From assembly GCA_026710795.1 (NCBI GenBank), contig JAPOQK010000037.1, positions 37,514-101,513 of the forward strand: a DNA stretch of 64,000 nt. The letters are read 5' to 3'. Under the pieces are notes generated by a model. The model did no database searches. It was not told where the DNA came from and was given only the letters and a program-made list of their open reading frames with translations. Source of the DNA: Candidatus Poribacteria bacterium (GTDB lineage: Bacteria > Poribacteria > WGA-4E > WGA-3G). Each line of letters begins with the position of its first letter. Within the stretch, counting starts at the first letter, position 1. The position numbers and the translations under genes were made by a program. Shown here piece after piece: positions 2,696 through 64,000 of this stretch.

Positions 2696-4102
2696 ATGAA
2701 TACAAAAAGAGGTGATTTAACTCAAGGAGGTCTATTACGCCATCTGTTACAACTTTCAGTGCCGATAACATGCGGCTACATACTCCAAGATGCATTCAAT
2801 ATTGTTGATATGATTTTTGTCGGCAGATTGGGACCTGCAGCAATAGCAGCTGTTGGCATTAGCGGTAATTTGTTGCGGTTAATTGCTGTTTTATCTCTCG
2901 GTATTTCAACAGGTGCGGGGATATTGGTGTCACAATACCTTGGTGCAAGGAATCATGCACAAGCAGGATACGTGGCGATGCAGGCTATACTACTTGCATT
3001 TTTTGCTGCCATAGGAATTGGTATTGTTGGGTATCCATTGGCTGAATTCGGTTTACGTGCCGTCCGAACAACAGACATTGAGGTGATACAACTCGGTACA
3101 ACCTATATGCAGATAATACTAATCGGCATAAGTGCTATGTTTCTATCAATGACACTGGGTTCGATTTTCCGTGCTGGTGGTGATGCTGTTACACCAATGG
3201 TCGTCTTGATATTGTCAACCTTGGTTAACATTGGACTTGACCCTCTACTGATATTTGGTTTGTGGAAATTCCCAAAACTGGGTGTAGCAGGATCGGCTTA
3301 TGCAACACTGATCGGTAGAGGTGTCGGTGTCGTTATCTTGCTTTTTCTCTGTTTTAGTGGTAAAGCTCCTATATCACTTCGTAATGTATTATTGCGCGCT
3401 GATCTTGTAGAAATGCTTGACATTTTAAGGCTGGGAATTTATAGTTCTATGCAGGGTTTCTGGCGACATTTATCTCGACTCGGATTCCTCTGGATTATCG
3501 GTCCTTACGGTAAATTTGCCGTTGCTGCCTATACGATCTGTATGCGTCTTAGAATTCTGGTTATGAACCCAGGTTTTGGGATAGCCAACGCTGTTGCACC
3601 TGTTGTTGGTCAAAATATGGGGGCAAATTTGATAGAACGCGCAGAAAAAACAGCTAAGATTGGAAATATACTGGCAACAACGGTAATGACCGGAATTGGA
3701 ATATTATTCTTAGTTTACCCGCATATGTTCATACGGGTATTTACCGACGACCAAGAAGTTATAAAAATTGGTTCTGTATACATTCAATTCTTGTCTCTCA
3801 CTTTTGGATTTATAGCCTTTTCACTGGTATTAGGTAAAGCACTTAACGGTGCCGGTGATACTTTCTCACCGATGATTATTACACTCGCCGCACAGATTGG
3901 TGTAGGTTTAGGTCTTGTTATTATATTATCGCATTTTATCGGTCTAAATGGTGTTTGGATCGGCATTGCACTTTCAAATGTTGTTCAAGGCATTGCTATG
4001 TGGATATGGTATAGAACAGGCAAATGGAAAACTATTAAACTTATGAGTGGTAGAGAAAATTCTACCAGAAAGGTGGTGAAAAATGGCGTACAAAGGTTAT
4101 GA
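2696..4102 (+). CDS. MATE family efflux transporter
   Basis: The 468 aa polytopic protein has the MATE N-terminal signature (LLRHLLQLSVPITCGYILQDAFNIVDMIFVGRLGPAAIAAVGI) and 12 predicted TM segments. It ends in TGA, overlapping the next gene's ATG. Confidence 0.85.
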   Translation: MNTKRGDLTQGGLLRHLLQLSVPITCGYILQDAFNIVDMIFVGRLGPAAIAAVGISGNLLRLIAVLSLGISTGAGILVSQYLGARNHAQAGYVAMQAILLAFFAAIGIGIVGYPLAEFGLRAVRTTDIEVIQLGTTYMQIILIGISAMFLSMTLGSIFRAGGDAVTPMVVLILSTLVNIGLDPLLIFGLWKFPKLGVAGSAYATLIGRGVGVVILLFLCFSGKAPISLRNVLLRADLVEMLDILRLGIYSSMQGFWRHLSRLGFLWIIGPYGKFAVAAYTICMRLRILVMNPGFGIANAVAPVVGQNMGANLIERAEKTAKIGNILATTVMTGIGILFLVYPHMFIRVFTDDQEVIKIGSVYIQFLSLTFGFIAFSLVLGKALNGAGDTFSPMIITLAAQIGVGLGLVIILSHFIGLNGVWIGIALSNVVQGIAMWIWYRTGKWKTIKLMSGRENSTRKVVKNGVQRL

Positions 4103-4913
4103 AAATCCTCAGTTGGTTATTTCTGCTGAGGAACTGAAAAATAGTCTTGATGATACGTATTGTATCGTTGATACACGTCCGACACATGAATATATCCAAG
4201 GGCATATACCAGGGGCACTTCATCTTGACCTGTTTGGATTGAGTTTGATCAATACACGCAAAGAGACATTAGATACATTTATGTGGATGATTGCCTACCT
4301 ATTCCAACAACGTGGTATTGATCCAGCGAAAACCATAATTTGGTATGATAATATCTCAGGCATATATGCATCTCGTGGTTTTTGGTTTTGCGAGTATTTA
4401 GGACATCAAGAGAATCGTGTTTTAGATGGTGGCTTTAATGCATGGTTAGCAGCAGAAGGTTCGGTCAGTACAGAAGGTGTAGAACCCCCTAAAGTACCGC
4501 AATTTCCCATAGAGACGATCCACGAATTACATATGGATGCGAATCTGATACATTCAAATCTGACTCAAGACGATTTTGTCTCACTTGATACACGTACAGA
4601 TGAAGAACATTATGGACGAGTTGCTCGGGCAAAACGGGCAGGGGCAATACCAGGGTCGGTCCATATTGAGTGGGTCAATAATCTTGATGATTCTGGGGCG
4701 TTCAAACCTGCTGCTGAACTGAGAGAAATGTACGAAGCAGCAGGAATAACGCATGGAAAAAGGGTAATGTGCTACTGACAGGGCGGCTACCGTTCTTCGC
4801 AGACCTATTTAGCATTGCGGCTTATCGGGTATCAGTTAGTAAGCAATTACATTGGGTCTTGGAAAGAATGGGGAGACCAGCTGGATTTGCCGGTCGAAAT
4901 TCCTGAAGAATAG
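4083..4913 (+). CDS. Two-domain rhodanese / thiosulfate-3-mercaptopyruvate sulfurtransferase with in-frame TGA (putative selenocysteine) at the catalytic position
   Basis: The called ORF ends at TGA 4776-4778 (..KRVMCY*). The same frame continues QGGYRSSQTYLALRLIGYQLVSNYIGSWKEWGDQLDLPVEIPEE to TAG at 4911-4913. This is the canonical rhodanese C-terminus: active loop C-x-x-G-x-R, then GY..V..Y.GSW.EW. The TGA aligns with the catalytic Cys (U-Q-G-G-Y-R). Confidence 0.7.
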
Positions 4914-4915
4914 TA

Positions 4916-50994: not shown

Positions 50995-53484
50995 TTACCG
51001 AATAATCTTAACATTGATAACAGGACTATCCTGTTGAAATGTCTTACCGTTGATGACTGCGGTTGCTCGGAATTTAACCTGATATGTCTTAGGTTCAAGA
51101 GAACTGATTGCTGCAAGATCTACCTCAATATCATTTTCGTTGATAGGTATCGTTGCTTCCGGTATAGTGATGCCTTCTGGCACTGTAATTGGCGTGATGG
51201 TAACGATATCGGTAAAACTTCCTCTCCGAACAATACTCATAGTCAGTTTAGCAGTTTTTGTAATCGGTTCAACCTTTTCTTCAGTTTCAGTCTGTGCATT
51301 CTCTGCTGGACTCGGATTTGAGACAGCAACAGTTTCACCTTCACCAGTAGCAGCTGCAGGTTCTGTTTCATTCGCTGGTTTTGGGAAAACAATACTAAAA
51401 CGTAATGGTTCTATAGTCACTATAAATGGTGCTTCAACAACTGTCAAAGGAATCACAGGAGATGACTCCGTATAGTTTTCTCGGTTTACAGTTGCAGAAC
51501 CGCTAACTGAGATAAAACTTGTACCGGGTGTTGGAACAACGGAAAATTGCTCTCGTCTTTCGACTGTTCCAGCTCTAAGTGAAATTACAGCACTATTTTG
51601 TCCAGCAGGTATTGTTGCTTTTCCACCTGTAATGCGTGCAGAAACACCTTGAATATTTAGAGCAATTGCTCCATTGAAGTCATCCCTTCTATCAGCGATT
51701 ACGTGAAAGTTGGTAGCTTTATTATGTACAACGTTTACATCAACATCCGCAAATGATAGTGTAAAAGGTGGTGTATCCAACACTGTCAAGAGAATACCTT
51801 TTGGAGATGCAGTTTCTTCTATTCGTTGTCCACCAACAGCACTAACGCCAACAATGGAAAATGGATGTAATCCAAGTTCTGCGTCTACAGGTGCAGTGAT
51901 AGTTAATAATGCCTGATTTTGACCAGCAAAGAGTATAGTAGGACTAACGACAAATCCTTTTGGAAGATCAGGAGAATAAAAACGAAGTGCTCCATTAAAT
52001 CCATCAATACGTGCAACTGATGCTGTCAACATTAGCGTGCCACCACGACTAATTCGGGGATTGTCAGCATTTACATTCAGTCTATATCCTTGTTTCAGCG
52101 GACGTATTGTAAGTCTATATGGAAAATTCGCACCTCCTGCACCATTTAGGTCGCGTACAGATATACCGTAATCACCCGCTTCAGGAAATGTAAACCCGAT
52201 CCGTGCATCGGTTCCACTCGCATCATCATTCACTCTTAAGACCTGTTCTTCAACGCTACCTTCTGCTTCACCCTTTTTATGTGAATAGATGGTTAACACA
52301 GGATCCAGTTCTGAACGAAACTGCCGCGCTTGAACATCTAAGACTAAACCTGTTCCTTTTTCTGCCTTAATTGAGAACCTATCTACATCACCGGCTTTTT
52401 CAATTCTACCATTTACAGTGATCGGAGTGCCGATTTTGTTTTCTTCTGCTAAAGTATCATTAGGTTCTTTTTCGTTCGTTTCGTTAAATTCCCCGATTGC
52501 AAACGGATATGGATTTGTCTCTAAACCGTTGGGTGTGCTGACTCGCAGTTCCTGAATTCCAAGTGATGCATCCGGCGAAATGTCCAACTGTATCGTATTG
52601 ACTGAACCTAAATTTGCACCAGCAACGTTGACATTGTTTGCAGCACCACGTTTCCCACCAAGTGGAAATACACTTTGAAGATAAGGCAATTCACCTATGT
52701 TTAGTCTATATGTGTAATTTCCACCACCTTGATAGCGAACATCACGCAGATAAAGTGTATATTCCCCTTGCATTTCGGTTGTATAATCAATAAATGAATC
52801 TAATCCATTTCCGTCCTGACTTTTCAATATCTCAGTCCCATTTGGATCATATAGAACGAGGTAGGTATCTAAAGGAGAGCCAATACGTTGTGCGTGTATG
52901 TCACATATAAGGCGCGCGCCCTTCCTTAGTTTAAAACGGAAGAAATCCACGTCATCTATAGATGCTACCGTACCATTAACAGTAACTGGTAACTCAAGCA
53001 TGTTTGCTACTTCTTTTGTGGTATTCGGTTCCTGTTCCTTAATCTCTGGTAGGTCACCAACAATGAAGTTTTGAGGATTGGAAACACCGTTTGGTGTGAT
53101 AAGTCGTATCTGGTGGTTGCCAAGTGGGGCATCAGGGGCAATTTCGAAGGAAAGAACTAACCGAGGATTGTTTGGAATGTTTGCTGAAATACCAGAACCT
53201 GTAACACGGACCATTGCTACGGGTGATTTTTGCTTAATTTCTGCCTTGATTCCTTCTTTACTGAACCATATCTCCGCACTTTCATTTATATTTTTTCCAT
53301 CTAAAGTGATTTCAATAGTTTGTCCGCGCTGTGCAGCGCGCGGTGATATTCCAGTCAATTGTGGGGCAACTTGGGCATGTGCTATGCTGAAAATTAGGAA
53401 GAGAAACATGACTGTCTGTATTAGAAACAGTTTAGAATATTTGTTGTCTATATTTGCATGCTTGATAAATAAAATCGCTGGCAT
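50995..53484 (-). CDS. Large secreted repeat protein (IPT/Ig-like plus PPC pre-peptidase-C-terminal-like domains)
   Basis: It has a signal peptide and repeated beta-sandwich units with D-x-D-x-F-x-F type motifs (SIDDVDFFRFKL, GDVDRFSIKA). Confidence 0.55.
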   Translation of the reverse strand: MPAILFIKHANIDNKYSKLFLIQTVMFLFLIFSIAHAQVAPQLTGISPRAAQRGQTIEITLDGKNINESAEIWFSKEGIKAEIKQKSPVAMVRVTGSGISANIPNNPRLVLSFEIAPDAPLGNHQIRLITPNGVSNPQNFIVGDLPEIKEQEPNTTKEVANMLELPVTVNGTVASIDDVDFFRFKLRKGARLICDIHAQRIGSPLDTYLVLYDPNGTEILKSQDGNGLDSFIDYTTEMQGEYTLYLRDVRYQGGGNYTYRLNIGELPYLQSVFPLGGKRGAANNVNVAGANLGSVNTIQLDISPDASLGIQELRVSTPNGLETNPYPFAIGEFNETNEKEPNDTLAEENKIGTPITVNGRIEKAGDVDRFSIKAEKGTGLVLDVQARQFRSELDPVLTIYSHKKGEAEGSVEEQVLRVNDDASGTDARIGFTFPEAGDYGISVRDLNGAGGANFPYRLTIRPLKQGYRLNVNADNPRISRGGTLMLTASVARIDGFNGALRFYSPDLPKGFVVSPTILFAGQNQALLTITAPVDAELGLHPFSIVGVSAVGGQRIEETASPKGILLTVLDTPPFTLSFADVDVNVVHNKATNFHVIADRRDDFNGAIALNIQGVSARITGGKATIPAGQNSAVISLRAGTVERREQFSVVPTPGTSFISVSGSATVNRENYTESSPVIPLTVVEAPFIVTIEPLRFSIVFPKPANETEPAAATGEGETVAVSNPSPAENAQTETEEKVEPITKTAKLTMSIVRRGSFTDIVTITPITVPEGITIPEATIPINENDIEVDLAAISSLEPKTYQVKFRATAVINGKTFQQDSPVINVKIIR

Positions 53485-53673
53485 TTCTCCATTACCTCTT
53501 GCAAAAGTGCAAATTTATACTACACAGAAGTATAACCAAGTCAAATTTTAACAATTAGTTTGATGTTTCGTGTTTAGTCAATGTAATCGGTAGAATCTCT
53601 ATTTCATATATTAGAAAACCTGCACCTGAACAACAATTATTGTCCAAGTACAGGTTTCAGAATGGAAGTTGAA

Positions 53674-55122
53674 TTAGAATATTCCAGTAATCACTTCACC
53701 TTTTACCAATTCACGTGGTTGGTCTAAGTGATTCATCACGATAGTGTGCGGATCAATACCAAGCGTATGGTAAATCGTAGCGAGTATATCTCGTGGATGC
53801 ACTGGCTTTTCAAGTGGTGTTGAACCTGTCGCATCGGATTTTCCGTAAACTTGTCCACCTTTTACTCCAGCACCGGCAATTAGACCTGTATAGCAATAGG
53901 GCCAATGGTCTCGTCCATCAGGAGCGTTACCATTACCAGATGTGCTAATACCCATACGGGGGGAACGTCCAAATTCACCAATAGCGAGCACAAGTGTTTC
54001 TTCTAACATGCCCTTCTGATCTAAATCTTCAAGCAATGAAGAAACGGCACTATCTAACTTAGGACAGTGTAGGTTTTTCAACGGTCCGAAGTTCGCAGCG
54101 TGGGTATCCCATGCTGTAGTATTTGGATTGCCGTTAGCGACAGAGGGCCAATTCACCTGTACGAAACGGGTACCAGCTTCTACCAATCGCCGCGCGAGCA
54201 GCGCACTCTGACCGAATGTATGACGACCATATTTGTCGCGCATTTCATCCGATTCCTGTGCCAAATCAAACGCTTTACGTGCCTTCTGCGACAGAATGAG
54301 ATTATATGCTTTTTCATAATATTCGTTCAGGGCATAGGAATCTGCTACCTTGTCAATTTCTGGCATGTTGGCGTTAATCGTTTCAAGAAGCGTTTTTCGA
54401 CGCTGTAACCGCATCGGTGGCACTTCTGGACGAAGTGATAGATCGTCAAGATTGATCTCTTTATTCGGATCCTGGAAGAGAAAATATGGGTCATACGCTC
54501 TACCAAGGAACCCAGCATTTCCACCTTTACCGATGATGCCACTCTCCTGCATTGGACGCGGAAGTTGCACTGCCGACAACATCGGTTCATCTGGTGGTCT
54601 GAACTTAGCGATATGTGCTGCAGCATTTGGATGATCTGCAGGTGAAGGTGGATCAAGTTGTCCTGAAGGAGCAACCTTGTCCGGTGTTTCTCCTGTAACC
54701 ATCTGATACATTGCAGCTGTGTGATTGAATAATCCAGCCGGCGTATAACTTACGGAACGGATAAGACATGCTTTGTCCATCTGTTGTGCCAAACGCGGCA
54801 TTGTTTCTGATAACTGAATACCCGGAACATTCGTTGGAATCGGATTAAACTCACCACGAATGTTTGACGGAGCATCAGGTTTTGGATCCCAGATATCAAT
54901 GTGACTCGGTCCACCTTGCAAGAAAAGAAGAATGACAGAATTGGCTTTGCCCCAACCGTTTAGAGGCTTCGCGGGGTCAACTGTCGTGCTTGCCTTGGCT
55001 TGGAGTGACAATACTTGTGGTAGGCTAATGCCCAGCATCGCCGCGCCACCCACGCGGAGAAATTCTCTACGTGAGAACCCATCACATAATCTTCCGGGTG
55101 CTTGTGGTAACGATATCATCAA
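53674..55122 (-). CDS. DUF1501 family protein (sulfatase-like fold) with Tat signal
   Basis: It has SRREFLRVGGAAMLG. It is the typical partner of the DUF1549/DUF1553 gene. Confidence 0.85.
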   Translation of the reverse strand: MMISLPQAPGRLCDGFSRREFLRVGGAAMLGISLPQVLSLQAKASTTVDPAKPLNGWGKANSVILLFLQGGPSHIDIWDPKPDAPSNIRGEFNPIPTNVPGIQLSETMPRLAQQMDKACLIRSVSYTPAGLFNHTAAMYQMVTGETPDKVAPSGQLDPPSPADHPNAAAHIAKFRPPDEPMLSAVQLPRPMQESGIIGKGGNAGFLGRAYDPYFLFQDPNKEINLDDLSLRPEVPPMRLQRRKTLLETINANMPEIDKVADSYALNEYYEKAYNLILSQKARKAFDLAQESDEMRDKYGRHTFGQSALLARRLVEAGTRFVQVNWPSVANGNPNTTAWDTHAANFGPLKNLHCPKLDSAVSSLLEDLDQKGMLEETLVLAIGEFGRSPRMGISTSGNGNAPDGRDHWPYCYTGLIAGAGVKGGQVYGKSDATGSTPLEKPVHPRDILATIYHTLGIDPHTIVMNHLDQPRELVKGEVITGIF

Positions 55123-55182
55123 TTATTTCCTCCATTTATTTGTAAGAACTTTCGATATGAAAGCACAAATTCGGTTTCGGGC

Positions 55183-57672
55183 TTATCGGTTGAATAAGAA
55201 CGCGGGACTATTGATGAGTGCCCACATTAAATCTTGCGCACCTTCTTCTTTCGATTCGGTACTTGCAAGGTATTCAACCGCTGTCTTATATTCGTTTTCC
55301 ATTGGTAACCGAGCAAAAGTTGCAAGATACATCTCTTCAATCATAACACGATCATCCGTGTTTTCTTTGATGAGTTTAGCAATTCGTCCGTTTGGATCAA
55401 TAATTGCATTCGCAACTGTCGGACCGTTGATAAGGTTCATCGCATGTGCGAGGCTAACTTCTGTTGTTCTTTCACATTCACAAGAACTTTCACGTTCTGG
55501 ACGACCAAATAATTTCAGAAATCCATCATCCTTCACTTTGCTATCCGGTAATTGAACAGCTCGGAAGTCTTTTGGTACACCTTGAAACTTCGGTTGGCTA
55601 CCGGTAGCAACACCGATCGCATCTAACAACTGTTCTGCTGTCAAACGTCGTGCGATAGCGTGTGAGAAATTAATTGCATCCTCTTTATTCCACTTGTTCG
55701 TCTTGATACTCTGTTGATATGTACGAGAGCGGGCAATTGTTTTCATGATATGTTTAATATCAAATCCGCTTTCAATAAAATCTTTTGTCAATGCATCAAG
55801 TAGTTCCGGATTGCTGGGTGGATTACTGGATCTGATATCATCAACAGGTTCAATGATACCACGTCCCATAAAGTAACTCCAAATACGATTCACACCCGCT
55901 TTTGCAAACATCGGATTCTCAGAGGATGTGAGCCATTCTGCAAGAGACTCGCGCTTATTGGTTAAATCTTCTTTTGTCTCACCAAACGGGACAGATGGTG
56001 GAACAACGGCTAATGTCCTCGGATGTTTTACAGGAGTAGGACTGAAACTGGCGTAGACAACTTCTTCACCCGGTAATCGACCGTTTTTCACTTTTACATC
56101 AGAGAAGAATGCACCAAATTCATAATATTGATTTTGAGTCCATACCTCAAATGGATGATCATGGCATTTGTTACATGAGAAACGAACACCAAGGAACAGT
56201 TGTGTTGTATTTTCCACTGCAGCGGTATATTCTCGAGAAACTCGAAAATAATTCGCAGCTGGATTTTGATACGCACTACCTGTTGCTGTTATCAAGTCAT
56301 GGACAAACTTGTCATAAGGACGATTTTCTGAGATTGACTCGTGTATCCACTGTTGGAAAAGCCACATGCCGCGTTCACCGAGGAATTTACGGTTTGACTG
56401 CAATAGGTCACCCCATTTATGTGTCCAATGGTCAACATATTCTGTGGTGGCTACCAATTCATCAATCAGTTTTTCACGTTTCTCCTTAGAGGGTGTTTCA
56501 TCCATAAGGAAACTACGCACCTTTTCAGGAGAAGGTGGGAGTCCTGTCATATCAAAGTAAATTCTACGAACAAACTCTTCATCTGTGCAGAGTTCTGAAG
56601 GTAAAATCTTCAAACGTTTCAGTTTGTTGTGGACATGTGTATCTATATAGTTGTATTCAGGAGTTTTCACCCATTCATACCCACTACGATCACCCATGAC
56701 AATGATACCGTTTGTGCTATACGCACCTTCATATCGGGTTAGGATAGCAGTTTCTCCACGACGTTCTGCAGTCACAACACCGTCATCCGTTACCTTAGCT
56801 ACCTCAATCATACTACTTGTGAATTTTGCTTCACGGGTGACATCACGTGTTGAACCATCGGGATAGTGGGCAATCACCAACAATTGCTGTTTAGTACCAG
56901 GCATGGATAATTCAGCAGAATCTGGAAATACCTCCAACCTTTCAACACGTTGTGTTTTTTCAACATCTGAGACTACACCTTCACTAATCCACTGATGAAT
57001 AAGATTATAATCACGCGAATCTGGCACAATCACCTGACCACCTTTATGAGGCACTTCAGATGTCGGTTTGAGCAACATAAGACTCTGATCTGGAAACGCA
57101 CGATTAAATCGTCGTCCAGTTATATCTTCAATCAAGAGTTCGTAGTCGAAATCTGGATCATAACCGCGTAGTGACAATTTAAAACCATTTTTTCCTTTTG
57201 CTGAACCATGGCACGTTCCATTATTACAACCCGCATGGCTTAGAATGGGCATAATATCACGCACAAAACTCACTGGTGGAGCATCCATACTTTTTACAGC
57301 AACCGGTAATTCAGTTGTGATACCTTTTACCGATACAACGATCTTTGTCGTGCCAACTGTCATTGGAAAAATATAACCATCTTCATGCAATTTAACACCT
57401 TCTGAAGCAGGTTTTAACTCTGCCCATGAAGTTACATCTACCCAATTTCCATCCTTAGTTTGTCCCGATACAAGCACACGTCGACCATCTCGCGCATGCT
57501 CCAACGTCAACGACTCAGGATGAGTCTTCAACGCTTTTATGACGGGCATTTCTACACTCGGCACATTCTCCTCCATCTGACTCCAACTTGATTGCTGAAA
57601 TACCAAACAGCAGGAGAAGACGACAAGGAGTGTTACAACCAAGTAATAACTGAGTTTCACATTAACCTCCAA
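55183..57672 (-). CDS. PSD1-type protein: Big_2 plus PSCyt2 plus DUF1549 plus DUF1553
   Basis: It has CNNGTCHGSAKGKNGFKLSLRGYDPDFDY (PSCyt2) and SCNKCHDHPFEVWTQNQYYEFGAFF (DUF1549). Confidence 0.85.
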   Translation of the reverse strand: MEVNVKLSYYLVVTLLVVFSCCLVFQQSSWSQMEENVPSVEMPVIKALKTHPESLTLEHARDGRRVLVSGQTKDGNWVDVTSWAELKPASEGVKLHEDGYIFPMTVGTTKIVVSVKGITTELPVAVKSMDAPPVSFVRDIMPILSHAGCNNGTCHGSAKGKNGFKLSLRGYDPDFDYELLIEDITGRRFNRAFPDQSLMLLKPTSEVPHKGGQVIVPDSRDYNLIHQWISEGVVSDVEKTQRVERLEVFPDSAELSMPGTKQQLLVIAHYPDGSTRDVTREAKFTSSMIEVAKVTDDGVVTAERRGETAILTRYEGAYSTNGIIVMGDRSGYEWVKTPEYNYIDTHVHNKLKRLKILPSELCTDEEFVRRIYFDMTGLPPSPEKVRSFLMDETPSKEKREKLIDELVATTEYVDHWTHKWGDLLQSNRKFLGERGMWLFQQWIHESISENRPYDKFVHDLITATGSAYQNPAANYFRVSREYTAAVENTTQLFLGVRFSCNKCHDHPFEVWTQNQYYEFGAFFSDVKVKNGRLPGEEVVYASFSPTPVKHPRTLAVVPPSVPFGETKEDLTNKRESLAEWLTSSENPMFAKAGVNRIWSYFMGRGIIEPVDDIRSSNPPSNPELLDALTKDFIESGFDIKHIMKTIARSRTYQQSIKTNKWNKEDAINFSHAIARRLTAEQLLDAIGVATGSQPKFQGVPKDFRAVQLPDSKVKDDGFLKLFGRPERESSCECERTTEVSLAHAMNLINGPTVANAIIDPNGRIAKLIKENTDDRVMIEEMYLATFARLPMENEYKTAVEYLASTESKEEGAQDLMWALINSPAFLFNR

Positions 57673-58559: not shown

Positions 58560-59072
58560 TTACTCCTCCCAATTATCGTACACAATTTCTCCATTTTCTC
58601 TTGCCCATTTTTCAGAAAACCCAACATGAGAAATAGCATTTTGACTACGATCCAATTGACGTTCTGTTTCTGAAGCAATTATTTCTGGATCAAGTTCAAT
58701 AATCACTTTCACTTTAGTCTGGTTAGATGCATAAAATACTATCATAAATATTTTATCATTTCTCCATATTCTATTTAAAGATTCGTTTCGTTTTTCGGGT
58801 GGTTCCTTAAACATTCTATCAAACTGACCTGATCCGCCCTCTTTACATGATATGTATTCATATAATATTGAAGGATCATTAGGATCATGGGCATCTGCAT
58901 GTCGTTTGGATGTTATCAATGTGTGACCTAGTATATCTGCGATAATCATTTCTTTTGCAAGACCCGGCTGCAATAGATTGTTTATTCCTACTTTCCGAGC
59001 CAATTCTGATGCTCTTAATATCAATTTAATGATTTTTCGATATGTTTCTTGAGCCATAATCTCCCCTTTCAC
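58560..59072 (-). CDS. Hypothetical protein, candidate type II restriction endonuclease partner of the adjacent methyltransferase
   Basis: The 170 aa ORF sits in an AT-rich islet directly downstream of a DNA MTase. The call rests on context only. Confidence 0.3.
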   Translation of the reverse strand: MKGEIMAQETYRKIIKLILRASELARKVGINNLLQPGLAKEMIIADILGHTLITSKRHADAHDPNDPSILYEYISCKEGGSGQFDRMFKEPPEKRNESLNRIWRNDKIFMIVFYASNQTKVKVIIELDPEIIASETERQLDRSQNAISHVGFSEKWARENGEIVYDNWEE

Positions 59073-59198
59073 ATTACTGTAAAGTATTCAAAATGAATTG
59101 TAAGGACATATAGTATGAATTAGCTATTTCATATATCAATCATATACATGTCTTACTCAATATTAACAGTTTGGTATCAACATATTTAAAATAAACTC

Positions 59199-59969
59199 TT
59201 ACAACAATCCTAGTAGTCTTTCATTTGCAACTTTAACGAAATCTTCTTGAATCTCAAAAGCAATATAGTCTCTATCATATCTTTTACAAACTACAGGACA
59301 GGTTCCAACACCTGAAAAAGGATCTAACACTATATCACCCATTGAAGAACTAGCAAGGACTATTCTTTCAATTAATTTCTCTGGTTTTTGTATGGTATTT
59401 AGTGCTTCTCTACAAACTAATTCCTTTGACTTATAAGTTAATTGTTTTATATCACCCCAAACATTTCCAGGATTCTTTCCATTGGGATTGAACTTTGTTT
59501 TTCCAAATTTACCATTTGTTACAGATGGAACATTTTCACAACGAAGTCGATGTTCTAGTTCGACAAGTTGAGGCACTCTGATAGAATCAAGATTATAGCA
59601 TTTTGGACGATCACCTTTAATAAAATAGCAGATAATATCGTAATTATTGGTGTAATTGAGTCTTCCTTGTGCTAGTCGACTTGGTTGGTACCATACAATT
59701 TTCGATCTAAGGTTTAGATATTTACGGTAATCTATAAAGTCTATACAGTCCGATTTACCAAACAGATACATCGCACCACCATTTTTCAGTTTTGGAGTAA
59801 GTCTTTTTATAAGCATTAAATTAAATTCCTGAATTGAAGGAATTTTATCCCACTCCTCATTGGTAACTCCATAAGGACCGTCACATACAATAAGATCAAT
59901 TGAGTCATCTTTTACTTCATTGATGAGATTTAACGAGTCTCCACAATAAATTGTATTAAGTTTTAACAT
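59199..59969 (-). CDS. Beta-class DNA methyltransferase (DGPY variant of the (D/S)PPY motif)
   Basis: It has DLIVCDGPYGV and C-terminal DPFSGVGT. Its codon usage is AT-rich. Confidence 0.75.
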   Translation of the reverse strand: MLKLNTIYCGDSLNLINEVKDDSIDLIVCDGPYGVTNEEWDKIPSIQEFNLMLIKRLTPKLKNGGAMYLFGKSDCIDFIDYRKYLNLRSKIVWYQPSRLAQGRLNYTNNYDIICYFIKGDRPKCYNLDSIRVPQLVELEHRLRCENVPSVTNGKFGKTKFNPNGKNPGNVWGDIKQLTYKSKELVCREALNTIQKPEKLIERIVLASSSMGDIVLDPFSGVGTCPVVCKRYDRDYIAFEIQEDFVKVANERLLGLL

Positions 59970-60061: not shown

Positions 60062-61516
60062 TTACATTGGTCCAACACGTTCAGGACCTTTATCCATTGA
60101 GAACATTGAGGAATCAAAACTTCTTTTTATTAAATCAAATTTAATATCTTGCTTATCGGTAGTATACCATAAGTTAGTAAATTCATCAGGATCATCTACC
60201 AAATCGTAGAGTTCTCCTTCTTCGTGTCCGTGATATACTACTAACTTATAACGTTTATCTCGATACATTGTTGCGAAGGAATGATCACGTTGATCAAGGG
60301 CATCATAGTATTCACACCGAACGAAATCACGATGATGATTCGTATCTGACTCACCTTGAAGGATAGATAACAATGACCGTCCATGCATCTGTTCAGGTAT
60401 TGGTAATCCTGCTAATTCCAATAATGTTGGGGTTTTGTCAACAAGTTCTACAAGGGCATCGCTTTTTAAACCATTCTCAAAATGCCCTCGCCACGAGAAA
60501 ATTAACGGGACTCTGACTAAGCCTTCATAGAACCGACATCCTTTTTGAATGAGGCCGTGATCACCTAACATCTCACCGTGATCACTTGTAAATATAATTA
60601 CTGTGTTTTCTCGTTGTCCTGTTTCATCCAAAACGTTTAGTATCCGACCTAACTGATCATCAATCAGTTTAATCATGGCATAATATGCAGCTGTCAGTGT
60701 CTTAGAATCTCTTTGACCTACAAATTTAGGTTTCGTCTTTCCTTGTGGTGACTGAGGTATAATTGGATTCCGAATATCTAATTCATCAGGTGTACGAACT
60801 TTTGATTGGAAATCTATTTTACTCAGTCGGTTTTGTTGTTCTAAATCACTCTCCTTAAAGAGTGGTTCTGGCATGTCTGCTGGAATAAACTGTTCTCTAT
60901 ATGACTGAGGTGGATTGAACGGAGGATGTGGGTCATATATATTAACACTCGCAAGCCATGGGGTATCTCGTTCCTCACTAATAAACTCAATTGTCTTTTC
61001 TGCACACCATGTCGTTTGATGTAATTCTGTTGGAACACCTTCAGGATTTTGGGTTAACTCGCCAAGTATATATCCTTTTGAACGAACCCAATCAGCGTAA
61101 TCGTGACCTTCCTTCCAGTCATCTCGTGGTGCATGGCTATATTGCCAATACCGATAACCATCGTCTGCACGTGGCTCTATTCTACGAAAAGCACTCGCAA
61201 GATGTAATTTTCCAATCAATCCACAATCATATCCGATGTCTGCAAGTGTGCGTGTGATAAGTGGAAATGTATTCGGAAAATAATCATTCCCGTTACCATT
61301 GACATGAACCGCACTCGCATACATTCCCGTCAAAAAACTTGCTCGACTCGGTGTGCATATTGGACTTTGACAATATGCATGTGTAAATGCAACACCTTCA
61401 GCAACTAAACTATCAATGTTGGGAGTAGATACGTACGGATTCCCTAATGCTCCTATTGTGTCGTATCGCTGTTGATCTGTGCAAATCCATAAAATATTTG
61501 GCGTTTCAACAGACAT
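60062..61516 (-). CDS. Sulfatase (formylglycine-dependent arylsulfatase family)
   Basis: It has the C-T-P-S-R FGly motif (SPICTPSRASFLTG) and the metal-binding Asp pattern. Confidence 0.9.
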   Translation of the reverse strand: MSVETPNILWICTDQQRYDTIGALGNPYVSTPNIDSLVAEGVAFTHAYCQSPICTPSRASFLTGMYASAVHVNGNGNDYFPNTFPLITRTLADIGYDCGLIGKLHLASAFRRIEPRADDGYRYWQYSHAPRDDWKEGHDYADWVRSKGYILGELTQNPEGVPTELHQTTWCAEKTIEFISEERDTPWLASVNIYDPHPPFNPPQSYREQFIPADMPEPLFKESDLEQQNRLSKIDFQSKVRTPDELDIRNPIIPQSPQGKTKPKFVGQRDSKTLTAAYYAMIKLIDDQLGRILNVLDETGQRENTVIIFTSDHGEMLGDHGLIQKGCRFYEGLVRVPLIFSWRGHFENGLKSDALVELVDKTPTLLELAGLPIPEQMHGRSLLSILQGESDTNHHRDFVRCEYYDALDQRDHSFATMYRDKRYKLVVYHGHEEGELYDLVDDPDEFTNLWYTTDKQDIKFDLIKRSFDSSMFSMDKGPERVGPM

Positions 61517-61526
61517 ATTCGTTCAT

Positions 61527-63125
61527 TTACTTTGCAGTAGCAGTAAATCCTGCAGTCTTAATTACATTGGTAAGTTCATCAACCGAAACGCTATCCTTCC
61601 GCACCTTAATAACCGCTTGATCTGGTAGAGAAACTTCAGCACTGATAACGTTTTGGTGTTTTGTAAGTGCATCCTGCACTTTTTCAACACAAACCCCTCA
61701 CGTCATACCTGATACTGCCAAAGTAAGTTCCTCACTTGCATCGGTTTCTATTGGTACTGACATAAAAATGTGTAATTGTTTACCAGAAGTTGCATCAAAG
61801 ATACGGATCTTACCATCGAAACCACCCGTAGCGAGTTGGGTTCCATCAGGATGAAATGCAAGTGCAAATACTCCAACGGTATCACCTTGCATGGACAATA
61901 ACCGTTTACCATCTGACACGTTATATACACGTACTTCACCTGCGGAACTTCCAACAGCAAATTTGCTGCCATCTACAGAAAACGCGACCGCATCAATTGA
62001 TCCACCTTGTGCCTCATACGCTCTAATTAGGTTAAAATCTGTGTTTCCTACATCCCTGCGAGTTTCACGGAACATTTTGTATAACCGTGGAATTCTGTCT
62101 TCTCCGACACTCAAAACTTGGTCGGCATTTGGGTGACGTGCAATCGCATTAATTTCACCATAACCTTTGTTACTGGAGTTTACATCGTCAACAAAAGATC
62201 CTGTATCAACCTCCACCAATTTCAGCGCAGTATCACGACTACAACTAACAAAATGGGAACCGTCAGTAGAAAATACCGTACCGAATACCCAATCACCATG
62301 ATTGTCGAATTTCACAAGTTGCTTTTCATCTGCGATAGAAATGACACGCACCGTATGATCCGATGAACCGAAGGCTACTCGACTGGAATCTGGGGCAAAT
62401 GAGAGACCATAGATGGTATCATATGTGGAACGTATTGTTTTTGTGAGTTTATTTGTCCCAGTGTCCCACAACTGCACTTCACCAAATTGTGCCGGAGAAC
62501 CACCGGCAATACCGAGTATTTTTCCTTCATCTGTGTAGACAATTGATTGAATGCGACGTGCTTTACCTACCAATCGTGATTTAATGTCATAAGTCTTAGA
62601 ATCATACAATATTACTTCGCTGACTCCTGATACAGCAAGGGTTGTACCATCAGGAGAAAATGCAATTGCAGAAACAACGGGTGGAACTGTATATTGTGGG
62701 TAGTTTCCCTCTCCCATTTCATCTGTTACTTCAGGTGTGTCGTCTTTAGCACCTTCAAGAATCCAACGTCTAAATAGATCTATTTCATCTTTCGTGAGAG
62801 GTTCTTGGTTCTGTGGCATTGCGGGTGGGTCACCAGAAATAAGTTCAATGATGAGACTTTCATCAGGTTTTCCGGGGATTATCGCTTCGCCTGCCATACC
62901 ACCAAGCTTGAGTTCATCATAGGATGTTACAATCAGATCTGCATTTGCATCACCAGGATGATGGCACCCTTGACAACTCCGTTTAAGTAACGGAAGAATC
63001 TGTTTATGATAACTCACAGGATCTTCTTTTCCATGATTGTCTGCACTTACAAATGGACTCCACACGACAAAACAGAATAGAAAAATCACAACATAATTCA
63101 TTAACCTTAATCTTGATACATCCAT
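61527..63125 (-). CDS. PSCyt1 (CxxCH) plus WD40 beta-propeller protein fused through an in-frame TGA (putative Sec) to a C-terminal heavy-metal-associated (HMA) domain
   Basis: The start MDVSRLRL has GGAGGG 9 nt upstream, followed by a signal peptide. It has CQGCHHPG and WD40 repeats. The ORF 'ends' ...LTLAVSGMT-TGA(61698-61700), then continues in frame GVCVEKVQDALTKHQNVISAEVSLPDQAVIKVRKDSVSVDELTNVIKTAGFTATAK-TAA (61527). This reproduces the HMA consensus tLkVeGMtCxxC with the TGA at the first Cys. Confidence 0.65.
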
Positions 63126-63262
63126 ATTGTTGAAACCCTCCAGAAAAAACGAAAATATCCTATTGTAATCTCCGACGCAATTGATTAATTGGTATATTTT
63201 TAGGTAATTATACAACATTTTTGCCATAGAATACAAGTAAAATGTATTATAAGGAAACTGAC

Positions 63263-63960
63263 CTAATTTTCTATAATGGTCTAAATCTTGAAGTTAGGAT
63301 CACCGGAAATGTGTTGAATAAATTGAGTGATCAATCAAAATCAGTTGCAGTAACTGATGAGATTGATCGGTCATAACTTCGTGTTGCGTCTGAATTTCTC
63401 GGTGGATATGATCCTCATGTGTGGCGCGATGTTACTCTATGGATGAAAGCAACTGAGAAGGTACGTGACACATTGGTAAATCAGACCGAAAAAATGCACA
63501 ATTCTATCAGGAAATGCACAGAAATACATGACATCATTGAATAAATTATATCACGACCTTTTACTCCTTACCGCGCAAATGCCAGCTAAACGTAGAGTGC
63601 TTGTTACAACGCACGATGCCTTCGGGTACCTCGGAAGTGCCTATGGATTTGAGGTGCGTGGGTTATTGGGTATAAATACAGAAGACGAAGTAGGTATCGC
63701 AGATGTAAGAGAACTTGCTTCATTTATTGTATAACGTGGAATTCCAACAATGTTTGTTGATACCTCATCCTCATCACGTGGAATCAGGACCGTACATGCA
63801 TGAGTTCTTGCAAAGGGATTCAGAGTAGAAATCGGTGGTGGTCTTTACGCTGATGCAATGAGATCTCCAAGAACACCAGAAAGGACATATATCGGTATGA
63901 TGCGGTTTAACATTGAAACAATCGTGAATTCGTTGCAATCTGAGTTAGCATATCAGAAGT
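63263..63960 (+). pseudogene. ZnuA/TroA-like metal-binding lipoprotein remnant (N-terminus missing, in-frame stops, at least two frameshifts)
   Basis: It shows ETDLIFYNGLNLEV, GYDPHVW and VLVTTHDAFGYLGSAYGFEV (ZnuA hallmarks) spread over three frames. It has in-frame TAA and TGA stops and a local near-duplication AATGCACAattctatcagga/AATGCACAgaaatacatgac. Confidence 0.55.
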
Positions 63961-64000
63961 AGTGATTATGTAATGTGGAAGGTTATTGTAAATTGGTCTT

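What the first reader, a model, noticed from the sequence alone, without database searches (positions are those of the whole stretch)
61527..61760. PSCyt1-WD40 cytochrome continues through a TGA into an HMA metal-binding domain whose first Cys of GMTCxxC is the TGA, with a SECIS-like hairpin downstream
On the minus strand the protein reads ...EELTLAVSGMT-[TGA]-GVCVEKVQDALTKHQNVISAEVSLPDQAVIKVRKDSVSVDELTNVIKTAGFTATAK. The HMA domain, a ferredoxin-like betaalphabetabetaalphabeta fold, starts before the TGA (LTLAVSGMT). It therefore cannot be an independent downstream gene. The TGA occupies the first metal-binding Cys (GMT-U-GVC). A 7 bp hairpin, AAGUGCA-GGA-UGCACUU at about 61665-61681, has a GG-containing apical loop 17 nt after the UGA. 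This matches the distance of the E. coli fdhF SECIS. A c-type heme module, a beta-propeller and a Sec-containing HMA in one secreted protein is an architecture I do not recognise.
Basis: partly seen in the sequence, partly recalled or inferred. Interest (0 to 1): 0.85.

Follow-up and report, generated by a model that had tools for sequence, protein, structure and literature searches.

The report
Selenocysteine metal-binding tail on Poribacteria cytochrome-propeller protein
An apparent stop codon inside a secreted haem/beta-propeller protein of a sponge-associated Poribacteria genome is almost certainly read as selenocysteine, which places selenium in the metal-binding site of a C-terminal HMA domain; it is an unannotated selenoprotein family, but it uses a known mechanism.

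Summary
The minus-strand gene 63125..61527 has an in-frame TGA at 61700-61698, at the first Cys of the HMA motif GMT-C-xx-C. After it come 56 sense codons and a TAA stop.

- **Conservation:** all 80 related Candidatus Poribacteria loci plus the window (81/81) keep TGA at this position, followed by an open, protein-like tail.
- **Proof of translation past the TGA:** the Cys three codons later is invariant but uses both TGT (48) and TGC (33).
- **RNA constraint:** synonymous variation collapses exactly over the hairpin AAGUGCA-GGN-UGCACUU (61681-61665). This hairpin meets the published bacterial SECIS consensus.
- **Selenocysteine (Sec) use in this lineage:** a second conserved selenoprotein gene, a rhodanese with TGA at 4776-4778, lies in the same window. 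A published table lists SelA, SelB and SelD for Poribacteria WGA-3G, which carries the same TGA gene.

The selenocysteine reading is therefore strongly supported.

Sec in HMA-type proteins is already known (a MerP-like protein, P-type ATPase UxxC, the UxxU protein NF041115). The PSCyt1-WD40-HMA fusion is not in the selenoprotein lists and papers I checked, and public annotations cut it off at the TGA. No ortholog with Cys at this position was found. The protein's function is unknown; the best guess is periplasmic soft-metal binding or redox.

I rate it a new member of a known kind, of moderate interest.

The parts
61527..63125 (-). Full selenoprotein coding sequence, 532 codons including Sec476, plus the TAA stop. 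Domain order: signal peptide, PSCyt1 haem-c module, WD40 propeller, HMA(UxxC).
   Evidence: Translation. Start confirmed by homolog N-termini. Domains from Pfam. Read-through supported by 81/81 conservation.
63042..63125 (-). Probable N-terminal signal peptide (MDVSRLRLMNYVVIFLFCFVVWSPFVSA).
   Evidence: Read from the sequence. A hydrophobic core followed by VSA is inferred by eye and was not run through a predictor. It fits the requirement that c-type haem is attached in the periplasm.
62814..62975 (-). PSCyt1 (Planctomycete cytochrome c) domain, with the CxxCH haem-binding motif CQGCH at 62975-62961.
   Evidence: Pfam PF07635, E=2.6e-9, 38 bits against a cut-off of 22, residues 51-104. The motif is invariant in sampled homologs.
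61746..62678 (-). WD40 beta-propeller (approximately residues 150-460).
   Evidence: Pfam WD40 PF00400, 104.6 bits against a cut-off of 27, plus many propeller families.
61545..61724 (-). HMA (heavy-metal-associated) domain, residues 468-527. It spans the TGA.
   Evidence: Pfam PF00403, E=2e-10, profile positions 1-61 of 62. The PDB matches are metal-binding domains of ATP7B/ATP7A/CopA, MerP, CopZ and the MerA N-terminus.
61698..61700 (-). In-frame UGA, read as selenocysteine (U476). It occupies the first ligand position of GMT-U-xx-C.
   Evidence: TGA in 81/81 orthologous sequences, whereas the true terminators are TAG 58, TAA 21, TGA 1.
61689..61691 (-). Second ligand, Cys479, of the UxxC motif.
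   Evidence: Cys in 81/81 sequences with synonymous codon use TGT 48 / TGC 33. This shows the codons just after the TGA are translated.
61665..61681 (-). Bacterial SECIS apical hairpin: 7-bp stem AAGUGCA/UGCACUU with a GGN loop. It lies within the codons K-V-Q-D-A-L of HMA helix 1.
   Evidence: RNAalifold consensus. 98.4% of cells are paired. Synonymous entropy is 0-0.45 bit over codons +6..+12, against about 1-2 bits in the flanks. It meets the bSECIS model constraints.

Best explanation
**Recoding mechanism.** The gene encodes one 532-residue exported protein. It consists of a signal peptide, a PSCyt1 c-type haem module, a WD40 beta-propeller and a C-terminal HMA domain.

During translation the UGA at 61700-61698 is not used as a stop. 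The hairpin 16 nt downstream (61681-61665, GG in the loop) acts as a bacterial SECIS. It recruits SelB carrying Sec-tRNA(Sec), and selenocysteine is inserted.

The result is an HMA domain whose metal-binding loop reads GMT-U-x-x-C. It offers a selenolate plus a thiolate instead of two thiolates.

**What is shown.**
- The TGA is conserved.
- The codons after it are translated.
- There is an RNA-level constraint on the hairpin.
- The hairpin fits the SECIS consensus.
- The lineage has other selenoproteins, and sel genes are reported for it.

**What is inferred.**
- The protein sits in the periplasm.
- It uses the U-x-x-C site to bind, or exchange electrons with, a soft metal such as Cu(I) or Hg(II), in the manner of MerP or CopZ.
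- The haem c possibly supplies or accepts electrons.
- The propeller possibly acts as a scaffold.

Ribosomes that fail to insert Sec would release a 475-residue product lacking a functional HMA.
For: **Conserved TGA**
- All 120 best database homologs (71-100% identity) are called at about 475 aa, and the 15 I read end in (S/T)GMT.
- All 80 loci from Candidatus Poribacteria species-representative genomes have TGA at that codon, followed by 56 open codons.

**The tail is coding**
- Entropy by codon position is 0.46 / 0.32 / 1.22 bits downstream, against 0.60 / 0.39 / 1.32 upstream.
- There are no in-frame stops in any of the 81 tails.
- Cys at +3 is invariant with TGT/TGC alternation.

**Hairpin**
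- Third-position entropy falls to 0.15 bit over codons +6..+12, exactly where the hairpin lies.
- The third loop base is free (A/G/C/U) while GG is fixed.

**Published bSECIS criteria (PMC13188914)**
- Loop 3 nt, within the allowed 3-9.
- Stem 7 bp, within the allowed 4-16.
- G at loop positions 1-2.
- 23 nt from UGA to loop, within the allowed 16-37.
- MFE -12.4 kcal/mol for +4..+48.

**Alignment of U with Cys**
- U aligns with the first Cys of GMTCxxC in the solved ATP7B domains shown.
- The nearest Cys form, a free-standing HMA lipoprotein, is 53% identical.

**Sec use in the lineage**
- A rhodanese gene in this window has TGA at the active-site Cys. Poribacteria orthologs are truncated there, and more distant homologs carry Cys.
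- PMC5649159 Table S4 lists SelA = 2, SelB = 1, SelD = 1 for Ca. Poribacteria WGA-3G. Locus L065 is a WGA-3G assembly contig, so apparently the same genome, and it carries the TGA.
- Sec-type hydrogenases are reported in Poribacteria MAGs.
Against: - No sel gene and no tRNA-Sec lie in the window or in the 80 loci. The machinery was therefore not seen directly for this genome.
- The hairpin stem is nearly invariant, so there is almost no covariation: one compensatory pair, and shuffle controls are not significant.
- The single-sequence fold z-score is only -1.39.
- There is no Rfam match.
- No Cys-containing ortholog with the same architecture was found. The usual Cys/Sec ortholog pair therefore exists only at the level of the HMA domain.
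- No selenium incorporation data exist.
- The functional part (metal, redox role) has no direct support. Gene neighbours are uninformative.
Confidence: 0.88

Rival explanations
1. The UGA is recoded through the same SECIS/SelB route, but a non-canonical tRNA (tRNA-ReC, also called SelC*) inserts cysteine rather than selenocysteine. The mature protein would then carry an ordinary GMTCxxC site.
For: Such tRNAs exist and decode SECIS-dependent UGA as Cys (Vargas-Rodriguez 2018, as cited in PMC13582414). Nothing in the DNA distinguishes Sec from Cys insertion.
Against: In that study tRNA-ReC was enriched mainly in genomes with UxxU motifs and was found in only about 2% of other Sec-type genomes; the phyla it names as carrying it there (Armatimonadota, Desulfobacterota, JAPLJL01) do not include Poribacteria. 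If Cys were the product, TGT/TGC variants would be expected among 81 sequences, and none was seen. SelA and SelD, which make Sec, are reported for WGA-3G.
Confidence: 0.05
2. The TGA is a real stop. It could be a sequencing error, a pseudogenising mutation, or a normal terminator. In this reading the HMA-like tail is a decaying remnant, or a separate small gene starting at GTG 61679.
For: Gene callers annotate it this way in every public record seen. A decayed gene, the ZnuA-like one, lies next door in this window. An ORF from GTG 61679 exists.
Against: TGA is present in 81/81 independent assemblies. There are no in-frame stops in 81 tails. The tail shows a coding-type codon-position pattern. 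Codons between the TGA and GTG 61679 are under protein-level selection, with Cys +3 and Val +4 invariant despite synonymous variation. The HMA domain needs the residues before the TGA.
Confidence: 0.02
3. The organism uses an altered genetic code in which TGA is a sense codon everywhere (Trp or Gly, as in codes 4 and 25).
For: In-frame TGA codons occur in at least two genes of the window.
Against: Both TGAs sit at catalytic or ligand Cys positions, not at Trp or Gly positions. With TGA read as stop, the window gives 41 densely packed long ORFs ending in TAA 26, TGA 9, TAG 6. One ortholog uses TGA as its true terminator. G+C is about 40%, with no sign of general TGA read-through.
Confidence: 0.01

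Closest known systems
Cation-transporting P1B-type ATPase selenoprotein (COG2217/ZntA, UxxC), listed in the Olavius-symbiont, GOS and review tables
   Same: Per the review tables, this family carries a UxxC Sec motif. From general knowledge, that motif lies in an N-terminal HMA domain at the first Cys of CxxC, as here.
   Different: There the HMA is the cytoplasmic N-terminal domain of a membrane pump. Here it is the C-terminal domain of an exported haem-c/WD40 protein with no transporter domain.
MerP-like selenoprotein ('Mercuric transport protein MerP', GOS selenoproteome, PMC2398784)
   Same: MerP proteins are small periplasmic HMA-type metal binders, and a Sec-containing form is listed. 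MerP structures (1afi, 1osd) are among the PDB matches of this tail.
   Different: MerP is free-standing and belongs to mer operons. This tail scores 31.9 bits against the 92.55 cut-off of TIGR02052, it is fused to a cytochrome-propeller, and no mer genes were seen in the two neighbourhoods I read (the window's flanks and L050).
NF041115 UxxU_metal_bind, metal-binding (seleno)protein (putative mercuric reductase-like)
   Same: It ties with CopZ (NF033795) as the best NCBIfam hit. It is an HMA-like metal-binding selenoprotein.
   Different: The score is 37.1 bits against a cut-off of 95. The motif here is UxxC, not UxxU, and the protein has one Sec, not two. It is not a member.
E. coli fdhF SECIS
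   Same: Both are stem-loops inside the coding region just after the UGA. The apex sequences are similar: GCAGG..UGCAC here (AAGUGCAGGAUGCACUU) against GUUGCAGGUCUGCACC in fdhF.
   Different: The loop has 3 nt instead of 4, and there is no bulged U. The hairpin sits 5 nt further from the UGA: 16 against 11 nt to the stem, and 23 against 18 nt to the loop.
PSCyt1-WD40 proteins of other bacteria (37-50% identical, about 460-510 aa)
   Same: They share the same N-terminal haem module and propeller, and align end to end up to the ...F(V/M)xVP(I/L) motif.
   Different: They stop a few residues after that motif and have no HMA domain and no TGA. The Sec-HMA tail was seen only in the Poribacteria orthologs.

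Membership tests
Bacterial selenoprotein gene (Sec-UGA plus bSECIS) | The in-frame UGA aligns with Cys in homologous proteins (a Cys/Sec pair). | tested here: met
   U aligns with the first Cys of GMTCxxC in the solved ATP7B HMA domains shown, and the HMA profile spans the site. A 53%-identical Cys-form HMA lipoprotein exists. No Cys form with the full PSCyt1-WD40-HMA architecture was found.
Bacterial selenoprotein gene (Sec-UGA plus bSECIS) | The UGA is conserved in orthologs, with coding conservation on both sides. | tested here: met
   TGA in 81/81 sequences. No stops in 81 tails. Third-position entropy is 1.22 bits against 0.46 and 0.32 at positions 1 and 2.
Bacterial selenoprotein gene (Sec-UGA plus bSECIS) | A downstream stem-loop fits the bSECIS model: loop 3-9 nt, stem 4-16 bp, G in the first two loop positions, 16-37 nt from the UGA, MFE <= -7.5 kcal/mol. 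| tested here: met
   Loop GGA is 3 nt, stem is 7 bp, spacing is 23 nt, MFE is -12.4 kcal/mol for +4..+48 (the hairpin alone gives -6.4).. Synonymous sites are frozen over the hairpin. Covariation is essentially absent because the stem is invariant.
Bacterial selenoprotein gene (Sec-UGA plus bSECIS) | The genome encodes selA, selB, selC (tRNA-Sec) and selD. | tested here: inconclusive
   None is present in the 64-kb window or the 80 flanking loci, and whole genomes could not be scanned. The literature table lists SelA, SelB and SelD in Ca. Poribacteria WGA-3G, the source of L065, which has the same TGA gene. A second conserved selenoprotein gene lies in this window.
Bacterial selenoprotein gene (Sec-UGA plus bSECIS) | Selenium is actually incorporated at the UGA position. 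| not testable with these tools
   This needs 75Se labelling or mass spectrometry.
HMA domain (Pfam PF00403) | Score above the gathering threshold over the whole domain, with the GMTCxxC metal-binding loop. | tested here: met
   41.3 bits against 24.8, profile positions 1-61 of 62, with C substituted at the TGA. The motif reads GMT-U-GV-C. The fold itself was not modelled.
NF041115 UxxU_metal_bind | Score above the curated cut-off (95 bits) and a UxxU motif. | tested here: not met
   37.1 bits, and the motif is UxxC.
MerP (TIGR02052) / CopZ (NF033795) | Score above the curated cut-off for the equivalog model. | tested here: not met
   MerP 31.9 bits against 92.55. CopZ 37.1 bits against 91. 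These are resemblances only.
PSCyt1 (Pfam PF07635) | Score above the gathering threshold, with a CxxCH haem-attachment motif. | tested here: met
   38 bits against 22, with CQGCH at residues 51-55.

The most novel reading that the evidence does not exclude
The Sec-HMA tail is not just a metal buffer. In this reading it is the working site of a Poribacteria-specific periplasmic redox device. Haem c passes electrons to, or takes them from, a metal or metalloid held by the selenolate-thiolate pair, with the propeller as a docking platform. Selenium would be indispensable, which would explain why no Cys form was seen among 81 orthologs from one candidate phylum.
Probability: 0.2. Interest if true: 0.65.

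Novelty: new member of a known kind. Interest (0 to 1): 0.45.

Why it matters
**Annotation.** Every public version of this gene that I read is cut off at the TGA, so a whole domain is missing from databases. Correcting this adds a selenoprotein family present in all 80 Poribacteria species-representative genomes examined.

**Biology.** It extends the small group of selenoproteins in which Sec is a metal ligand rather than a thiol-redox catalyst. It links that group to an exported haem protein of a very large family of unknown function (PSCyt1-WD40).

**Sec fixation.** No Cys ortholog was found in any of the sequences examined, which is unusual for a selenoprotein family. This makes the family a useful case for asking when selenium cannot be replaced by sulfur.

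**Limits.** The recoding mechanism is standard, and Sec in HMA-type proteins has been reported before. The finding is useful rather than surprising.

Tried and rejected
- **Rfam:** a scan of 61400-61900 at E<=10 gave only noise (snoR60, CsrB) and no SECIS family.
- **Lower stem:** the extended lower stem seen in the single-sequence fold (columns 11-15 with 41-45) is not conserved. Only 74% of cells are paired, and it is broken by the TGT/TGC alternation. I dropped it; only the 7-bp apex is claimed.
- **sel genes:** tblastn with E. coli SelA, SelB and SelD against the window plus 80 loci gave no hits. ARAGORN found no tRNA in the window.
- **Representative library:** I searched the 475-aa part instead.
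- **C-terminal query:** a 110-aa query with Cys, run against 5.8 billion proteins, collected only 4 candidates, all of them truncated fragments. This is weak negative evidence because of the word index.
- **Gene neighbourhood:** the downstream sulfatase and DNA methyltransferase are syntenic in L050. Upstream there is a ZnuA-like gene in 13 relatives and a sigma-54 regulator fragment in L050. This gives no coherent functional clue.
- **Rival readings:** pseudogene or sequencing error, an independent downstream ORF, and genome-wide TGA reassignment were each considered and rejected on the comparative data.
Full report
**1. What is in the sequence**

On the minus strand an ORF starts at ATG 63125. 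It reads through a hydrophobic N-terminus, a CQGCH haem motif and a long WD40 region, up to ...EELTLAVSGMT. Then comes TGA (61700-61698). The frame continues as GVCVEKVQDALTKHQNVISAEVSLPDQAVIKVRKDSVSVDELTNVIKTAGFTATAK and ends at TAA (61529-61527).

Pfam confirms the domains:
- PSCyt1 at residues 51-104 (38 bits, cut-off 22).
- WD40 / beta-propeller families over residues ~150-469.
- HMA PF00403 for the 68 residues around the TGA when Cys is placed there (E=2e-10, 41.3 bits, cut-off 24.8, profile positions 1-61 of 62).

The hairpin AAGUGCA-GGA-UGCACUU lies at 61681-61665. On its own it is unremarkable (76-nt fold z = -1.39).

**2. Comparative evidence**

A search of 5.8 billion predicted proteins returned 120 best hits at 71-100% identity. 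Those with names are from Candidatus Poribacteria. All are called at about 440-494 residues and cover only 83-89% of the read-through query. The 15 I read all end in (S/T)GMT.

A scan of species-representative genomes gave 80 loci; 77 are titled Poribacteria and 3 'uncultured bacterium'. In all 80, plus the window, the codon after GMT is TGA. It is followed by 56 sense codons and then a real stop (TAG 58, TAA 21, TGA 1).

The tail is under protein-coding selection:
- Mean column entropy by codon position is 0.46 / 0.32 / 1.22 bits. The 56 codons upstream give 0.60 / 0.39 / 1.32 bits.
- None of the 81 tails contains a stop.
- The Cys three codons after the TGA is invariant but alternates TGT (48) and TGC (33). 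The next Val uses all four codons.

The ribosome must therefore pass the TGA in frame. This excludes sequencing error, a pseudogene, and an independent ORF starting at GTG 61679.

**3. The RNA element**

Among sequences sharing the majority amino acid, codon entropy is 0, 0, 0, 0, 0.10, 0.45 and 0.37 bit for codons +6 to +12 (AAA GTG CAG GAT GCA CTT ACA). Neighbouring four-fold codons give about 1-2 bits. Third-position entropy in this stretch is 0.15 bit. This stretch is exactly the hairpin.

RNAalifold on 45 distinct sequences returns only that 7-bp stem with a 3-nt loop. The stem is paired in 98.4% of cells. The first two loop bases are GG and the third varies freely. Because the stem hardly varies, covariation is nearly absent: there is one A-U to G-C change at the basal pair, and the shuffle controls are not significant. 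The argument therefore rests on frozen synonymous sites, not on compensatory changes.

The element meets the published bacterial SECIS model (PMC13188914):

| Criterion | Model | Here |
|---|---|---|
| Loop length | 3-9 nt | 3 nt |
| Stem length | 4-16 bp | 7 bp |
| G in first two loop positions | required | GG |
| UGA to loop | 16-37 nt | 23 nt |
| MFE | <= -7.5 kcal/mol | -12.4 for +4..+48; -6.4 for the hairpin alone |

A lower stem predicted in the single sequence is not conserved. Rfam has no match.

I extracted and folded E. coli fdhF for comparison. Its apex is similar (GCAGG..UGCAC), but its stem begins 11 nt and its loop 18 nt after the UGA. Here the values are 16 and 23 nt.

**4. Does this lineage decode Sec?**

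No tRNA and no sel gene lie in the window or in the 80 loci. I could not scan whole genomes. Three indirect lines support Sec decoding.

- **A second selenoprotein gene in the same window.** A tandem-rhodanese sulfurtransferase (4083..4915, + strand) has TGA at 4776-4778, at the active-site Cys (VMCY-U-QGGYRS). Homologs above ~60% identity (those with names are Poribacteria) are all called at about 232 aa. Homologs at 53-58% identity are full length and read CYCQGGYRS. Six contigs of a 78%-identical ortholog keep the TGA and an in-frame tail with synonymous changes. This family is a catalogued selenoprotein (COG2897 SseA).
- **Published sel gene counts.** Table S4 of PMC5649159 lists COG1921 SelA = 2, COG3276 SelB = 1 and COG0709 SelD = 1 for Ca. 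Poribacteria WGA-3G. Locus L065 is a WGA-3G assembly contig, so apparently the same genome, and it has the TGA-HMA gene.
- **Other Sec proteins in the phylum.** Sec-type group 4 [NiFeSe] hydrogenases have been reported in Poribacteria MAGs (PMC13582414).

A genome-wide change of code is unlikely. Read with the standard code, 41 long ORFs in the window end in TAA 26, TGA 9, TAG 6. Both in-frame TGAs sit at Cys positions.

**5. Mechanism and function**

The best-supported mechanism is standard SelB/SECIS-dependent insertion of selenocysteine at codon 476. This gives an HMA domain with a GMT-U-x-x-C loop.

The SECIS lies inside the codons for K-V-Q-D-A-L, the start of the first HMA helix. The double constraint, on protein and RNA, explains why this stretch is so invariant.

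One nuance cannot be excluded from DNA alone. A tRNA-ReC could deliver Cys through the same route. I give this about 5%, because no TGT/TGC form exists among 81 sequences and because SelA and SelD are reported for the lineage.

The function is inferred, not shown. The N-terminus looks like a signal peptide, and c-type haem is attached outside the cytoplasm, so the protein is probably periplasmic. The nearest solved relatives of the tail are metal-binding domains of ATP7B/ATP7A/CopA, MerP, CopZ and the MerA N-terminus, which bind Cu(I) or Hg(II). My working proposal is a periplasmic soft-metal binding or redox site, possibly coupled to the haem.

Gene neighbours do not help:
- A sulfatase and a DNA methyltransferase lie downstream, syntenic in L050.
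- Upstream there is a ZnuA-like binding-protein gene in 13 relatives, or a sigma-54 regulator fragment in L050.
- In this window the ZnuA-like gene is decayed, with two TAA, one TGA and a frameshift.

**6. Comparison with what is known**

Selenocysteine in HMA-type metal binders is already catalogued:
- A P1B-type cation-transporting ATPase with UxxC.
- A MerP-like protein from the GOS data.
- The UxxU metal-binding protein NF041115.

The present tail fails the curated cut-offs of NF041115 (37.1 against 95 bits), MerP (31.9 against 92.55) and CopZ (37.1 against 91). It is not a member of those families.

WD40 is mentioned in none of the four selenoprotein papers I searched for it: the 2026 review, the GOS paper, the deep-Sep paper and the Haft preprint. 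No NCBIfam model covers the fusion. Public records name the truncated product 'hypothetical protein' or 'WD40 repeat protein'.

Distant PSCyt1-WD40 homologs (37-50% identity) end just after the ...VP(I/L) motif and have no HMA. The Sec-HMA tail was seen only in the Poribacteria orthologs. The nearest Cys form I found is a free-standing HMA lipoprotein on a metagenome contig, 53% identical to the tail. No Cys ortholog of the whole protein was found.

**7. Verdict**

It is a new, unannotated selenoprotein family that works by a known mechanism and belongs to a known class (Sec as a metal ligand in an HMA fold).

Interest is moderate at 0.45. It is valuable for annotation, for selenoproteome catalogues, and as a case where Sec appears fixed across the orthologs examined. 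It does not challenge current understanding.

Noticed in passing
window 4083-4915 (+), TGA at 4776-4778: A second selenoprotein gene: a tandem-rhodanese (SseA-type) sulfurtransferase with TGA at the active-site Cys (VMCY-U-QGGYRS). Close homologs (named ones are Poribacteria) are all annotated truncated at about 232 aa. Homologs at 53-58% identity are about 275 aa and carry Cys. An ortholog on six contigs keeps the TGA and an in-frame tail. The family is a known selenoprotein family.
   Followed up: yes
window 63242-63990 (+): A ZnuA/TroA-like metal ABC-transporter binding-protein gene, divergent from the selenoprotein gene, is decayed here. It has in-frame TAA twice, one TGA and one frameshift. 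Apparently intact copies lie at the same place in 13 of the 80 related loci.
   Followed up: partly
L090 4500-4862 and 4935-5261 (+) (metagenome contig JYMV01027328.1): Two tandem small lipoprotein HMA genes with ordinary Cys (GMTCGACVAKVQGAL and GGLECGKCVNKVQ). The first is 53% identical to the window's HMA tail and is the nearest Cys form found. They lie next to a gamma-glutamyltranspeptidase-like gene; that identity was judged by eye from the translation and was not scanned. The organism is unknown.
   Followed up: partly
window 61665-61681 (-) compared with L089 (E. coli fdhF): The SECIS apex here (AAGUGCAGGAUGCACUU) shares the core GCAGG..UGCAC with the E. coli fdhF SECIS apex (GUUGCAGGUCUGCACC), despite the phylogenetic distance. 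The spacing from the UGA differs by 5 nt.
   Followed up: partly
window 50995-57672 (-): Two 829-residue ORFs (50995-53484 and 55183-57672) flank a 482-residue ORF. The translation of 55183-57672 looks like the Planctomycete-type PSCyt2/DUF1549 plus PSD1/DUF1553 architecture (CHGSAKGKNGFKLSLRGYDP...). This was judged by eye only and no domain scan was run.
   Followed up: no
window 58560-59969 (-): A DNA methyltransferase-like ORF (59199-59969, CDGPYG motif) lies next to a 170-residue ORF (58560-59072). This may be a restriction-modification pair. The methyltransferase and the sulfatase 60062-61516 are syntenic downstream of the selenoprotein gene in L050.
   Followed up: no
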